From Winogradskyella sp. 3972H.M.0a.05 (GTDB lineage: Bacteria > Bacteroidota > Bacteroidia > Flavobacteriales > Flavobacteriaceae): a stretch of DNA of 64,000 bases. Below the pieces are notes generated by a model. The model was given only the letters and a program-made list of their open reading frames with translations, was not told where the DNA came from and searched no databases. A program made the translations under genes and the position numbers. Shown in pieces: positions 12,423 to 13,350 of this stretch; the first letter of the stretch is position 1; every line of letters begins with the position of its first letter. The DNA lies in NCBI RefSeq assembly GCF_040493455.1, contig NZ_JANFDA010000001.1:483283-547282 (forward strand), given 5' to 3'.

Positions 12423-12495
12423 CCATAACATAAGTAGGTTAAGTTCATGGTAGATTTGGGGCAAAAAAAGGTGAACTCTTTGTTCACCTTTTTTT
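12423..12495 (+). repeat. repeat unit copy 1: 7-bp hairpin plus GC hairpin and T-run (sRNA-like or terminator element)
   Basis: ccataacataagtaggttaagttcatgg...aaaaaaaggtgaactctttgttcaccttttttt. Near-identical to the copy at 12656. Confidence 0.7.
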
Positions 12496-12655
12496 ATTTG
12501 CCATACTTTTTTCCGTAATGGGTTTATTCTCTTTGAGTTACAATTCTGACCTGTATTTTGTCCACGAAGTTCGCCCTTTTCTCGTTTAAGCTAATATATA
12601 AGTAGTTTGTCCAAAAAATATTGTTGTAAGAAAGTTACCTCTTTATATTTGAGTC

Positions 12656-12727
12656 ACCATAACATAAGTAGGTTAAGTTTATGGTAGATTTGGGGCAAAA
12701 AAGGTGAACTTTCTGTTCACCTTTTTT
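12656..12727 (+). repeat. repeat unit copy 2, preceded by a Bacteroidetes-type -7 box (TATATTTG)
   Basis: About 95% identical to copy 1. tatatttg lies 5-6 nt upstream of the unit start. Confidence 0.7.
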
Positions 12728-12856
12728 CATGTTTAATAGGTTCGTTTTGCTTTTCTTTCTTATCCCTTCTGTTTACGATTTAGCAATTGATTTTCCACTA
12801 ATAGATAGAGATTTAAATAACTATATTAGTTGTATCAAAGTAAAGTAAACGGATAA

Positions 12857-13321
12857 ATGCAGATTAAACAAGTTAAAGCCTTTATTGTAATTTTTATGTT
12901 ACTTGTATTTGGTGAAATCTCAAGCCAAAATAAAAAGATTGCTTACTTATTTTTTGATCGTTTTAGTGAAGAAACGTTTACTTTCAAGAAAGAAGGTAGA
13001 AGAATTACTAGGGCAAAATACGAAATTAACTACATAAGAAAAATAGGATCATTGGATAAAGATTTTTTCATTTTTGATGAACACTTTAAGTATATAGAAG
13101 GGAATGATATTGTTGAACTTTTCCAGGAAGACTTAGATTCATTAAAATTCAACACGATTAAAGATTTAAAAAAGGAATGGGAAAAAAGAGAAGTGCTTAA
13201 TAAAGAAAAAGTATATGATAAAATTTATCTTTTGGATTATTGGGGTGATCCTCCAATAGATTATTTTGGGAACCCTCTTTATAAAATGTATGAAGTTATA
13301 TGGATAGAAGCCAATAACTAA
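12857..13321 (+). CDS. hypothetical secreted protein (orphan-like, AT-rich)
   Basis: Signal-peptide-like N-terminus. Flanked by hairpin repeat copies 2 and 3. Confidence 0.5.
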   Translation: MQIKQVKAFIVIFMLLVFGEISSQNKKIAYLFFDRFSEETFTFKKEGRRITRAKYEINYIRKIGSLDKDFFIFDEHFKYIEGNDIVELFQEDLDSLKFNTIKDLKKEWEKREVLNKEKVYDKIYLLDYWGDPPIDYFGNPLYKMYEVIWIEANN

Positions 13322-13350
13322 AAAAGGTGAACAGAAAGTTCACCTTTTTT
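13321..13350. terminator. hairpin repeat copy 3 (reverse-complement orientation of copy 2's hairpin)
   Basis: aaaaaggtgaacagaaagttcacctttttt. The loop agaaag is the reverse complement of copy 2's loop tttct. A and T runs on both sides make it a bidirectional terminator. Confidence 0.7.

What the first reader, a model, noticed from the sequence alone, without database searches (positions are those of the whole stretch)
12423..13350. Tandem sRNA-like hairpin-plus-terminator repeat, with a third inverted copy of the terminator hairpin flanking an AT-rich orphan ORF
Two 72-nt units about 95% identical (12423-12495 and 12656-12727). Each has a 7-bp hairpin (ccataac...gttcatgg) and a GC hairpin (ggtgaac-N6-gttcacc) followed by a T-run.

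- Copy 2 is preceded by a good Bacteroidetes -7 box (TATATTTG) at the right distance.
- The hairpin immediately after the 154-aa ORF (13321-13350) is the exact reverse complement of copy 2's hairpin, including the loop.
- The ORF is therefore bracketed by inverted copies of the same element. This is reminiscent of a MITE or REP-like mobile hairpin, or of duplicated small RNA genes.
Basis: seen in the sequence. Interest (0 to 1): 0.55.

Follow-up and report, generated by a model that had tools for sequence, protein, structure and literature searches.

The report
Two tandem Rfp13-family small-RNA genes
The repeat is two adjacent genes for a roughly 72-nucleotide regulatory RNA, already detected as Rfp13/Rfp15 in the fish pathogen Flavobacterium psychrophilum, that is almost unchanged across at least 45 genera of Flavobacteriaceae and sits right after the purF gene; it is not a mobile element, and its function is still unknown.

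Summary
There are two about 73-nt direct copies (12422-12495 and 12656-12727, 93% identical), and a third hairpin (13320-13350) is the exact reverse complement of the copy-2 terminator.

The MITE/REP reading is wrong and the "duplicated small RNA genes" reading is right. The unit is the homologue of Rfp13 of Flavobacterium psychrophilum (38 of the first 40 nt identical). Rfp13 is a 73-nt sRNA with a mapped start site that is induced in stationary phase and under iron depletion (Guérin 2021). Its paralogue Rfp15 also lies after purF.

An exact 22-mer of the RNA occurs in at least 120 genomes of about 45 named Flavobacteriaceae genera.
- It forms arrays of 1-6 copies.
- purF lies directly upstream in 104 of 120 loci, and a convergent sodA lies downstream in 97 of 120.
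- Each copy carries a Bacteroidetes -7 box and a strongly covarying intrinsic terminator.
- About 60% of copies, including both window copies, have direct-repeat sites phased 20 nt apart upstream of the promoter.

The family is not in Rfam, phages or plasmids.

The third hairpin is a bidirectional terminator for the orphan ORF154 and a convergent TPR gene. It is probably left over from local duplication.

The function is inferred to be a trans-acting riboregulator. No targets were found.

The parts
10410..12308 (+). purF-like amidophosphoribosyltransferase gene (632 aa), the conserved upstream neighbour. No terminator lies between its stop codon and sRNA copy 1.
   Evidence: ORF list. Pfam glutamine amidotransferase domains. 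tblastn finds it upstream on the same strand in 104 of 120 loci. No terminator-like site at 12309-12421.
12325..12381 (+). Three phased direct-repeat sites upstream of the copy-1 promoter, at 12325-12340, 12346-12361 and 12366-12381 (cores TTTGTCC, TTTAACC, TTTCATCC). This is a candidate activator-binding region.
   Evidence: Position-weight-matrix scores 11.4, 9.7 and 18.6 bits. Family-wide, sites occur only 55-57 and 75-77 nt upstream of ACCATA.
12410..12417 (+). Bacteroidetes-type -7 box of copy 1 (TACATTAG).
   Evidence: Read from the sequence. The TAnnTTTG column conservation lies at -13 to -6 from the start site in 239 units.
12422..12495 (+). sRNA gene copy 1 (Rfp13 family). It comprises a weak 5' hairpin (12423-12450), a single-stranded linker AGAUUUGGGGC (12451-12462), and terminator T1 (stems 12463-12476 / 12482-12495).
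   Evidence: nhmmer E = 1.5e-15. 38 of 40 identity to Rfp13 in the 5' part.
12551..12615 (+). Direct-repeat sites upstream of the copy-2 promoter. There is a strong proximal site at 12600-12615 and a variant distal site around 12580-12595 (CGTTTAAGCTAAT, also seen in orthologous copy-2 promoters). An off-phase site lies at 12551-12566.
12644..12651 (+). -7 box of copy 2 (TATATTTG).
12656..12727 (+). sRNA gene copy 2 (Rfp13 family), with terminator T2 stems at 12697-12709 / 12715-12727. It carries the U at position 25 that marks second copies in 16 other two-copy loci.
12857..13321 (+). ORF154, a lineage-specific orphan with a signal-peptide-like N-terminus and 27% GC. It is not part of the conserved sRNA locus.
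   Evidence: The only hit among 5.8 billion protein clusters is itself, from Winogradskyella sp. 3972H.M.0a.05. No Pfam family. Absent from all 120 loci. GC content.
13281..13309 (+). Weak similarity to the sRNA 5' part, collinear with T3 and lying inside the 3' end of ORF154. It may be a remnant of a decayed third copy.
   Evidence: Local alignment score 25, shuffle p = 0.0125; 0.56% of genomic windows score as high.
13320..13350 (.). Hairpin T3, a perfect 13-pair hairpin flanked by A6 and T6. It serves as a bidirectional terminator for ORF154 (+) and the convergent TPR gene (-), and is a copy of T2 with the loop reverse-complemented.
   Evidence: I1, I6. Folds at -15.5 kcal/mol on the + strand and -16.7 kcal/mol on the - strand, z = -5.7 and -6.7.
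13401..14105 (-). Convergent TPR-repeat protein gene (234 aa). It occupies the place that sodA holds in relatives.

Best explanation
**What it is.** The two repeat units are two separately transcribed genes for a roughly 72-nt small RNA of the Rfp13/Rfp15 family of Flavobacteriaceae.

**Shown or read directly.**
- Each gene has its own Bacteroidetes sigma-A type promoter: a -7 box 6-13 nt before the start at A12422/C12423 and at A12656/C12657.
- Each has its own intrinsic terminator.
- Copy 1's terminator also ends the purF transcript, so copy 1 can additionally arise from the purF 3' UTR.
- The first 41 nt are held almost invariant by selection.
- The two copies are old, position-specific paralogues, not a recent duplication.

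**Inferred.**
- The RNA is a trans-acting riboregulator. It would pair through its conserved, weakly structured 5' part (loop AAGUAGGUUAAG, 3' arm GUUCAUGGUA, linker AGAUUUGGGG) with mRNA translation-initiation regions.
- Expression would rise at entry into stationary phase and under iron limitation, as measured for Rfp13.
- Transcription would be driven by an activator that binds two direct repeats 20 nt apart, centred near -45 and -65.

**The third hairpin.** It is not part of an sRNA gene. It is a bidirectional terminator between the orphan ORF154 and a convergent TPR gene, and was derived locally from an sRNA terminator.

**Confidence by step.** Identity about 0.95; base-pairing regulator about 0.6; activator-bound repeats about 0.5. 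The overall figure given is for the statement as a whole.
For: **Identity.**
- The Rfp13 sequence CCATTACATAAGTAGGTTAAGTTATGGTAGATTTGGGGC... is in the supplementary tables of Guérin et al. 2021 (PMC9723704).
- The window copies match Rfp13 at 38 of 40 positions in the 5' part and 83-87% overall.
- Rfp15 lies directly after purF, as here.

**Expression of Rfp13 (log2 fold change).**
- +5.68 in transition phase, +7.09 in stationary phase and +2.38 with dipyridyl.
- A tRNA control shows +4.51 in stationary phase but only +0.15 with dipyridyl.

**Conservation.**
- The exact 22-mer occurs in at least 120 stretches of genome DNA from about 45 named genera.
- Arrays hold 1-6 copies.
- The unconstrained flanking RNA positions are also 64-100% conserved.
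- Paralogue signatures are position-specific; the window has the same copy-1/copy-2 signature as 16 other loci.

**Promoter.**
- The TAnnTTTG box sits at a fixed distance from the start.
- Direct-repeat sites occur only 55-57 and 75-77 nt upstream, in 60% and 57% of 240 promoters. They are present in both window promoters and in the F. psychrophilum promoters.

**Terminator.**
- All 239 units have a perfect hairpin of at least 11 pairs followed by a T run, with 71 different stem arms.
- 9 of 13 pairs show changes on both sides and 99.5% of cells are paired, above both controls.

**Not coding.** One-nucleotide indels between paralogues (A-run length, GGUA versus GGUAA) break any reading frame.

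**Seed region.** The published CopraRNA interactions use sRNA positions of roughly 8-40.
Against: - No transcript data exist for this organism.
- No target was identified. Scans of start regions in the window are at background level. The neighbouring purF, pfkB and sodA start regions pair no better than controls.
- The 5' hairpin has no thermodynamic support. It shows no two-sided covariation in the main set and only a few compensatory cases in diverged copies.
- The iron response comes from one microarray comparison in a different genus, and no canonical Fur box is present.
- Part of the growth-phase signal is shared with tRNAs.
- The activator is hypothetical. The likeness of the repeats to LytTR sites is a resemblance only.
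Confidence: 0.7

Rival explanations
1. The RNA is real but acts mainly by binding or titrating a protein, for example an RRM-type RNA-binding protein like RbpB of Bacteroides, rather than by pairing with mRNAs. The multi-copy arrays would then serve dosage.
For: - 41 nt are nearly invariant, which is longer than a usual seed.
- Rfp13 reaches near-saturating array signal in F. psychrophilum.
- Up to six copies per array.
- No convincing target was found.
- FopS and GibS sRNAs of Bacteroides are bound by RbpB (PMC11697453).
Against: - There are no repeated protein-binding motifs of the CsrB type within the RNA.
- FopS and GibS, although bound by protein, still act by base pairing.
- Nothing here tests protein binding.
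Confidence: 0.2
2. The units are only duplicated transcription terminators, or purF 3' UTR sequence, with no function of their own.
For: - Copy 1 lies in the purF 3' UTR with no terminator before it.
- The third hairpin shows that the terminator part can be copied on its own.
Against: - The non-terminator 41 nt are the most conserved part, while the terminator stems vary freely.
- Each copy has its own conserved promoter elements.
- A start site with thousands of reads maps to the 5' end in F. psychrophilum, and that copy is not next to purF.
Confidence: 0.03
3. The element is a MITE- or REP-like mobile hairpin that has inserted around ORF154.
For: - The 31-nt perfect inverted match brackets a low-GC orphan ORF.
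Against: - One fixed syntenic site is seen in 104 of 120 loci.
- Each locus comes from a different genome record.
- The window holds only the two adjacent copies.
- There are no terminal inverted repeats or target-site duplications around the units.
- It is absent from viral contigs, phage records and plasmids.
- The inverted orientation rests on 5 nt only.
Confidence: 0.02
4. The array is chiefly a cis-acting module for its neighbours. It would act through convergent transcription or antisense overlap with the sodA 3' end, or through control of purF mRNA 3' end formation and stability.
For: - sodA is convergent directly downstream in 97 of 120 loci. Its nearest end lies as little as 57-97 nt from the last unit's 22-mer anchor, so the terminator may be shared in those loci.
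- purF reads into copy 1.
Against: - The window has no sodA anywhere, yet keeps both copies intact.
- In F. psychrophilum the two neighbours are at separate loci, each keeping one sRNA copy.
- The conserved 41 nt are not complementary to the sodA, purF or pfkB start regions.
- Arrays of up to six copies are hard to explain as a 3'-end module.
Confidence: 0.08
5. The segment between the two inverted 31-nt hairpins (12728-13319, carrying ORF154) is an invertible DNA cassette.
For: - Perfect 31-nt inverted repeats lie 592 nt apart.
- By general knowledge, invertible promoters are common in Bacteroidota.
Against: - A promoter-like -7 box for ORF154 (TATATTAG, 12822-12829) lies inside the segment, so inversion would not switch it.
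- Each 'repeat' is itself a palindrome, so only 5 nt define orientation.
- The flank after T3 (CAT...) and a weak collinear similarity upstream of it point instead to a direct copy with a flipped loop.
- The neighbourhood was not examined for a recombinase gene.
Confidence: 0.03

Closest known systems
Rfp13 and Rfp15 of Flavobacterium psychrophilum (Guérin et al. 2021, ISME Commun 1:33, PMC9723704)
   Same: - Same RNA family: 38 of the first 40 nt are identical to Rfp13.
- Same length class (73 nt) and same layout of 5' hairpin, linker and terminator.
- Same type of -7 box, and the same upstream repeat motif in the promoter.
- Rfp15 has the same position after purF.
   Different: - Here the two copies are tandem and both are Rfp13-like. 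In F. psychrophilum the copies lie at two loci (sodA side and purF side), and the purF copy (Rfp15) has diverged to 66-70% identity.
- The paper reports detection, conservation in a few species and CopraRNA predictions. It does not report the tandem arrays, the purF-sRNA-sodA synteny or the phased promoter repeats described here.
FopS / GibS sRNAs of Bacteroides (Rfam RF04319; PMC11697453, PMC7366714)
   Same: - Multi-copy sRNAs of about 65-70 nt in the same phylum.
- A sigma-A type promoter, a conserved 5' part and then a terminator.
- The words UUCAUGGUA and AGAUUU are shared with the FopS single-stranded seed region.
- They offer a plausible working model: pairing across start codons and binding by an RRM protein.
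   Different: - The Rfam score is 20.6 bits against a gathering score of 56. That is no better than terminator-only matches to unrelated families.
- A profile of the Rfp13 5' part finds none of 145 fetched FopS loci at E <= 10.
- FopS copies are dispersed and also occur in phages. This family is tandem at one locus and absent from viral contigs.
Tandem or sibling sRNAs controlled by one regulator: PrrF1/PrrF2 (Pseudomonas, Fur), OmrA/OmrB (OmpR), LhrC1-5 (Listeria, LisR), Qrr1-5 (from general knowledge; review PMC4211561 listed)
   Same: - Adjacent, near-identical sRNA genes, each with its own promoter and terminator.
- Shared promoter elements that suggest a common regulator.
- Induction under iron limitation, as for PrrF.
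   Different: - There is no sequence relationship.
- There is no Fur box.
- Bacteroidota lack Hfq (general knowledge).
- The regulator and the targets are unknown.
LytTR-type activator sites (AgrA at agr P2/P3 driving RNAIII; AlgR sites CCGTTCGTC and CCGTTTGTC; PMC4227749, PMC4064291)
   Same: - Two direct repeats just upstream of the promoter.
- Several copies read ...CCGTTCGTC... or ...AGTTTGTCC..., like AlgR sites.
- The spacing is about 20-21 nt, which is the LytTR repeat period by general knowledge.
   Different: - This is a resemblance only.
- The commonest core here is ATTTCATC, not GTTCGTC.
- No regulator gene is linked to the locus and no binding was tested.
MITEs and REP elements
   Same: Short, hairpin-forming and repeated.
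   Different: - Fixed syntenic position and ordered paralogue types.
- Own promoters.
- No terminal inverted repeats or target-site duplications, and not dispersed.

Membership tests
Rfp13/Rfp15 sRNA family (Flavobacteriaceae) | Sequence homology to Rfp13 over the non-terminator part | tested here: met
   38 of 40 identical in the first 40 nt and 83-87% overall. A profile that includes Rfp13 scores both copies at E = 1.5e-15.
Rfp13/Rfp15 sRNA family (Flavobacteriaceae) | Own sigma-A type promoter placing the start at the CCAUA... 5' end | tested here: met
   The -7 boxes TACATTAG (12410-12417) and TATATTTG (12644-12651) sit at the family-wide distance. The start site itself was mapped only in F. 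psychrophilum.
Rfp13/Rfp15 sRNA family (Flavobacteriaceae) | Intrinsic terminator directly after the conserved part | tested here: met
Rfp13/Rfp15 sRNA family (Flavobacteriaceae) | Synteny: after purF and/or convergent with sodA | tested here: met
   purF is directly upstream. The sodA half is not met in this window.
Rfp13/Rfp15 sRNA family (Flavobacteriaceae) | Expressed as a roughly 70-nt transcript, induced in stationary phase and under iron depletion | not testable with these tools
   No transcript data are available for this organism. The evidence comes from F. psychrophilum only.
FopS (Rfam RF04319) | Score at or above the Rfam gathering threshold | tested here: not met
   20.1-20.6 bits against 56.
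FopS (Rfam RF04319) | Detectable profile similarity to real FopS genes | tested here: not met
   nhmmer with the Rfp13 5' profile found no FopS gene in 145 FopS loci (2.2 Mb counting both strands) at E <= 10.
MITE / REP-like mobile element | Many dispersed copies at non-homologous sites | tested here: not met
   There are two adjacent copies in 64 kb. There is one locus per genome record among 120, and the site is fixed after purF. The whole genome of this strain could not be searched.
MITE / REP-like mobile element | Terminal inverted repeats and target-site duplication around the unit | tested here: not met
   None are visible around either unit. The unit boundaries coincide with the promoter and terminator.
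Fur-repressed iron sRNA (RyhB / PrrF kind) | Fur box overlapping the promoter | tested here: not met
   The best match to the canonical 19-mer is 10 of 19, below shuffles. No conserved palindrome lies between the -33 and -7 regions. The flavobacterial Fur motif is not known to me, so this test is limited.
Fur-repressed iron sRNA (RyhB / PrrF kind) | Pairing with mRNAs of iron-containing proteins (for example sod or Fe-S enzymes) | tested here: inconclusive
   The adjacent sodA and purF start regions show no excess complementarity. No genome-wide test was possible.
LytTR-activated promoter | Two direct repeats of about 9 bp with a period of about 21 bp upstream of the promoter | tested here: met
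   Sites lie at 55-57 and 75-77 nt upstream only. The window has sites at 12346 and 12366, and at 12600.
LytTR-activated promoter | Binding by a LytTR-domain regulator | not testable with these tools
   The only support is the sequence likeness to AlgR sites.
Riboswitch or cis leader of the downstream gene | A conserved downstream gene on the same strand under its control | tested here: not met
   The downstream gene is a convergent sodA in 97 of 120 loci. ORF154 is found in no other locus.

The most novel reading that the evidence does not exclude
The Rfp13 family may be a family-wide 'master' sRNA of Flavobacteriaceae. It would be switched on by a dedicated regulator that binds direct repeats (of the LytTR kind), with array size setting the dose and a differently promoted last copy in the Maribacter/Zobellia clade. 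It would use an anti-start-codon seed (GUUCAUGGUA, masked in a weak hairpin by the mimic ACCAUAAC) to shut down translation of surface or transport proteins at the transition to starvation or iron limitation. This would make it the flavobacterial functional counterpart of Bacteroides FopS/GibS and possibly a very distant relative of them.
Probability: 0.2. Interest if true: 0.7.

Novelty: new member of a known kind. Interest (0 to 1): 0.45.

Why it matters
Flavobacteriaceae are major degraders of algal and particulate organic matter in the sea and include fish pathogens, yet almost nothing is known about their RNA regulators.

- This RNA is about as conserved as a tRNA across the family. It is abundant where it has been measured and responds to growth phase and iron. 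It has no Rfam model and no known function.
- The locus map worked out here gives a concrete handle for building a family model, for comparative target prediction and for finding the regulator. The map comprises the pfkB-purF-[sRNA]1-6-sodA arrangement, the ordered paralogue types and the phased promoter repeats.
- For annotating this window, the result turns an 'odd repeat' into two RNA genes.
- It also shows that ORF154 and its terminator are a strain-specific rearrangement at the edge of a conserved locus.

Tried and rejected
- **Rfam.** No family reaches its threshold. The low-score hits are terminator noise.
- **FopS homology.** I fetched real FopS loci from viral and metagenome contigs. 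The Rfp13 profile finds none of them, so FopS is kept only as a working analogy.
- **Target search in the window.** Duplex energies of 56 start regions give a top z of about -2.6, which is not significant. Pairing anchored on the start codon gave no convincing true start. No complement of 9 nt or more to the loop or linker exists outside the genes themselves. A 14-nt complement with 1 mismatch lies in the 5' UTR of the 878-aa gene at 20519(-), but it is at chance level (nhmmer E = 8).
- **Neighbours as targets.** The sodA, purF and pfkB start regions across 69-85 loci pair no better than with a shuffled sRNA.
- **Fur box.** Not present.
- **Promoter-repeat motif elsewhere.** It is not upstream of purF, pfkB or sodA. 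Hits upstream of acpP in one clade turned out to belong to a different, palindromic acpP element, and most acpP promoters, including the window's, do not match.
- **Small protein.** Rejected because 1-nt indels separate the paralogues.
- **Exact-protein look-ups for the source contig.** These failed. The organism was identified instead through the ORF154 self-hit.
- **IroR.** This iron sRNA of Bacteroides has a different architecture as described, and no sequence was available to compare.
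Full report
**Checking the observation.**

- The repeat finder gives a 47-nt direct repeat at 12422-12468 and 12656-12702 (98%). It continues into a hairpin-plus-T-run part at 12456-12497 and 12689-12730 (86%).
- There are three self-complementary hairpins, at 12463-12495, 12697-12727 and 13320-13350.
- There is a 31-nt, 100% inverted match between the second and third hairpins.
- A 41-nt probe with up to three mismatches finds only the two copies in 64 kb, and the hairpin motif occurs only these three times. 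Both are expected zero times by chance.
- A global alignment of the two units gives 68 of 73 identical.

Some details need correcting.
- The loops are 5 nt, not 6.
- The stems run through the A and T tracts to 13-14 pairs.
- The 5' hairpin is 5+3 pairs with a bulge and is not significant by itself (-4.1 kcal/mol, z = -0.08). The full units fold at -20.9 and -20.0 kcal/mol, with z = -3.6 and -3.2.
- Copy 1 also has a -7-like box (TACATTAG) at the same distance as copy 2's TATATTTG.

**What it is.**

Rfam 15 has no family for it. Nothing reaches a gathering score in the region, and the matches at E <= 10 are driven by the terminator.

I searched for an exact 22-mer from the non-terminator part (ATAAGTAGGTTAAGTTYATGGT) in one genome per bacterial species.
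- All are Flavobacteriaceae or unclassified Bacteroidota.
- About 45 named genera are represented, from Maribacter, Zobellia and Cellulophaga to Winogradskyella, Aquimarina, Salegentibacter and Flavobacterium.
- Each stretch comes from a different genome record.
- The matches lie in head-to-tail arrays with a period of about 190-250 nt. Array sizes were 1 copy (51 loci), 2 copies (30), 3 (20), 4 (13), 5 (2) and 6 (1).

A full-text and supplement search then identified the RNA. The supplementary tables of Guérin et al. 2021 (PMC9723704) list Rfp13 of Flavobacterium psychrophilum.
- It is 73 nt long, with sequence CCATTACATAAGTAGGTTAAGTTATGGTAGATTTGGGGCAAAAAAGGCGG...
- It has a mapped transcription start at its 5' end, assigned to a SigA-type promoter.
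- A diverged paralogue, Rfp15, lies immediately after purF.

The window copies match Rfp13 at 38 of the first 40 nt. A profile that includes Rfp13 scores both at E = 1.5e-15. I found no later paper on this RNA in the library.

**Anatomy across the family.**

I aligned 239 units on the 22-mer.
- The RNA positions not fixed by the search are also conserved. These are ACCAUAGC before the 22-mer and A(A)GAUUUGGGG-A-run after it.
- A TAnnTTTG box sits at -13 to -6 from the mapped start.
- Every unit has a perfect hairpin of at least 11 pairs followed by a T run, beginning 10-14 nt after AUGGU. There are 71 different stem arms.

On a gap-free subset of 61 sequences, the terminator helix is well supported.
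- It is 99.5% paired.
- 9 of its 13 pairs show changes on both sides.
- It scores far above both the shuffled and the slid controls.

The 5' helix shows only one-sided changes there. That is partly because its 3' arm was fixed by the search pattern. A profile search found a dozen diverged copies in the arrays, and these add a few compensatory cases: C-G to U-A in L002, and AGC/GUU to GGC/GUC in four loci.

The picture is therefore an RNA whose first 41 nt are conserved as sequence and whose terminator is conserved only as structure. One-nucleotide indels between paralogues exclude a coding function.

**Promoter repeats.**

Upstream of the core promoter I found a 16-nt motif, consensus ATGCATTTCATCnAAA.
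- In 240 promoters, sites scoring at least 8 bits occur only with their start 55-57 nt upstream of the RNA (60% of promoters) or 75-77 nt upstream (57%), and essentially nowhere else.
- These are two direct repeats exactly 20 nt apart, centred near -45 and -65.
- The window has three such sites before copy 1 (12325, 12346, 12366).
- Before copy 2 it has a strong proximal site (12600) plus a variant distal one.
- The F. psychrophilum Rfp13 and Rfp15 promoters carry the same motif.
- In about 2 Mb of fetched DNA counted on both strands, the paired arrangement is otherwise almost confined to these promoters.
- The exceptions upstream of acpP in one clade belong to a different palindromic element.
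- The motif is not upstream of purF, pfkB or sodA.

Several copies read CCGTTCGTC or AGTTTGTCC, like AlgR sites. The layout of two direct repeats just upstream of a promoter is that of AgrA at the agr promoters. This is a lead to a LytTR-type activator, not a test. There is no canonical Fur box.

**Genomic context.**
- purF lies directly upstream on the same strand in 104 of 120 loci, and pfkB lies before it in 81.
- A 202-aa superoxide dismutase gene lies directly downstream on the opposite strand in 97 of 120 loci. Fourteen of the remainder have too little sequence to tell.
- The ancestral locus is therefore pfkB-purF-[sRNA]n-sodA(convergent). F. psychrophilum has split it, leaving Rfp15 with purF and Rfp13 with sodA.
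- The paralogues are ordered and old. In 16 other two-copy loci the first copy has C and the second U at RNA position 25, as in the window. The Maribacter/Zobellia clade has distinct first, middle and last types, and the last has a different promoter.
- The 93% identity of the two window copies therefore reflects selection, not recent duplication.
- In the window no terminator separates purF from copy 1. T1 thus also terminates purF, and copy 1 may in addition be released from the purF 3' UTR.

**The third hairpin and ORF154.**

The window departs from the family downstream of copy 2. sodA is absent from the whole 64 kb, and ORF154 and a convergent TPR gene follow instead.

ORF154 looks like a real, strain-specific gene.
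- Its only match among 5.8 billion protein clusters is itself, annotated as a hypothetical protein of Winogradskyella sp. 3972H.M.0a.05. This also names the source organism.
- It has no Pfam family and is 27% GC against 36% for the window.
- It occurs in none of the 120 loci.
- Other relatives carry different small ORFs at the same spot.
- By my own estimate from base composition, an open frame of 154 codons in such AT-rich DNA is very unlikely by chance.

T3 sits 50 nt past the TPR stop codon and overlaps the ORF154 stop codon. It folds equally well on both strands, so it is a bidirectional terminator.

Its identity with T2 is real, but its 'inverted' orientation depends on the 5-nt loop only. 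Two observations fit a decayed third direct copy whose loop has flipped.
- The three bases after T3 (CAT) match those after T2 in direct orientation.
- The 29 nt before T3 show a weak similarity to the sRNA 5' part that is collinear with it (score 25, shuffle p about 0.01).

This is suggestive, not shown.

An invertible cassette is unlikely, because a promoter-like box for ORF154 lies inside the segment.

**How it probably works.**

Shown elsewhere:
- Rfp13 is a primary transcript.
- Its log2 signal rises by 5.7 in transition phase, by 7.1 in stationary phase and by 2.4 with dipyridyl.
- A tRNA control rises by 4.5 in stationary phase but only by 0.15 with dipyridyl. The iron effect is therefore specific, while part of the growth-phase effect may be shared by small stable RNAs.

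Inferred:
- The RNA is a trans-acting regulator that pairs through its conserved, weakly structured 5' part.
- The published CopraRNA interactions use positions of roughly 8-40.
- The model is the Bacteroides sRNAs GibS and FopS. These pair across start codons and are bound by the RRM protein RbpB.

FopS shares the words UUCAUGGUA and AGAUUU with this RNA. However, a profile test against 145 real FopS loci found no similarity. I therefore treat FopS as an analogy, not as a relative.

I could not identify targets. Scans of the window and of the conserved neighbours are at background. A protein-binding role cannot be excluded.

**Verdict.**

The finding is real and is explained. It is two tandem genes of a known but uncharacterised and uncurated sRNA family, plus a locally copied terminator at a strain-specific rearrangement. 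It is not a mobile element: it is absent from viral contigs, phages and plasmids. As far as the held literature shows, the following are new here: the family-wide array organisation, the purF-sRNA-sodA synteny, the ordered paralogue types and the phased promoter repeats.

Noticed in passing
window 27437-31024 (+): A dense tRNA gene array. Rfam finds 17 tRNA matches within 3.6 kb and ARAGORN of them. The two tRNA-Leu genes are only 75-76 nt long, so they lack the usual long variable arm. One Rfam match (28802-28928) is 127 nt long and is not called by ARAGORN.
   Followed up: partly
window 7199-7251 (-), upstream of acpP (6938-7168, -): The acyl carrier protein gene has a promoter region that is highly conserved across Flavobacteriaceae: ...CACAnTTTnnnnnnnAAAGGTGTnnnTTAnAATAAAGTTTTTTATTTTTGCC. 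It contains an inverted-repeat element (CACA...TGTG) just upstream of a TATTTTTG -7 box. This is probably an operator of an unknown regulator.
   Followed up: partly
window 10349-10386 (+): A strong GC-rich hairpin with a T run (AACGAAACGCGCTC...GAGCGCGTTTTTTT) lies between pfkB and purF. A hairpin at this position is seen in the nine loci printed from other genera. It suggests either that purF is transcribed separately from pfkB or that an attenuator-like element lies only about 25 nt before the purF start codon.
   Followed up: no
window 12857-13321 (+): ORF154 is a strict orphan. It matches only itself among 5.8 billion protein clusters, has no Pfam family, is 27% GC and has a signal-peptide-like N-terminus. 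The slot between the sRNA array and the next gene holds different small ORFs in relatives, for example a 159-aa ORF in L025 and a 101-aa ORF in L052.
   Followed up: partly
window 20537-20550 (+), that is the 5' UTR of the 878-aa gene starting at 20519 (-): A 14-nt stretch complementary to the 5' end of the sRNA family consensus (ACCAUAGCAUAAGU), with one mismatch to the window's own copies. It lies 18-31 nt before the start codon of a large secreted protein that has a weak OmpH-like match. Statistically it is at chance level.
   Followed up: partly
L009 3335-3406, L016 1969-2040, L029 4723-4794 and other last copies in Maribacter/Zobellia/Muricauda-clade arrays: The last gene of these arrays is a distinct variant (GCCAUAGC..UUUAUGG..GGGACGAAAAGGG). 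Its conserved upstream region is different (TTTTTTATTTCCCACAATACCAGTATTTTAGT) and lacks the direct repeats. This implies separate regulation of one paralogue.
   Followed up: no
L083 3121-3076 (-); L002 576-530 (-): Diverged extra copies occur at array ends. L083 has a decaying third copy next to sodA. L002 has a second copy with a compensatory C-G to U-A change in the 5' stem.
   Followed up: partly
L121-L145 (IMG/VR viral contigs): The Bacteroides FopS seed 21-mer occurs exactly in 25 viral contigs. This agrees with the published remark that phages carry FopS-like sRNAs. In contrast, the flavobacterial family has no hits in viral contigs.
   Followed up: no
FopS loci L146-L265, about 20-35 nt upstream of the -7 box: Many FopS promoters carry the palindrome-like word TATGCTnCATAACATAAA. 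Its CATAACATAA part also forms the 5' end of the flavobacterial sRNA. The profile test gives no support for homology, so this may be coincidence.
   Followed up: partly
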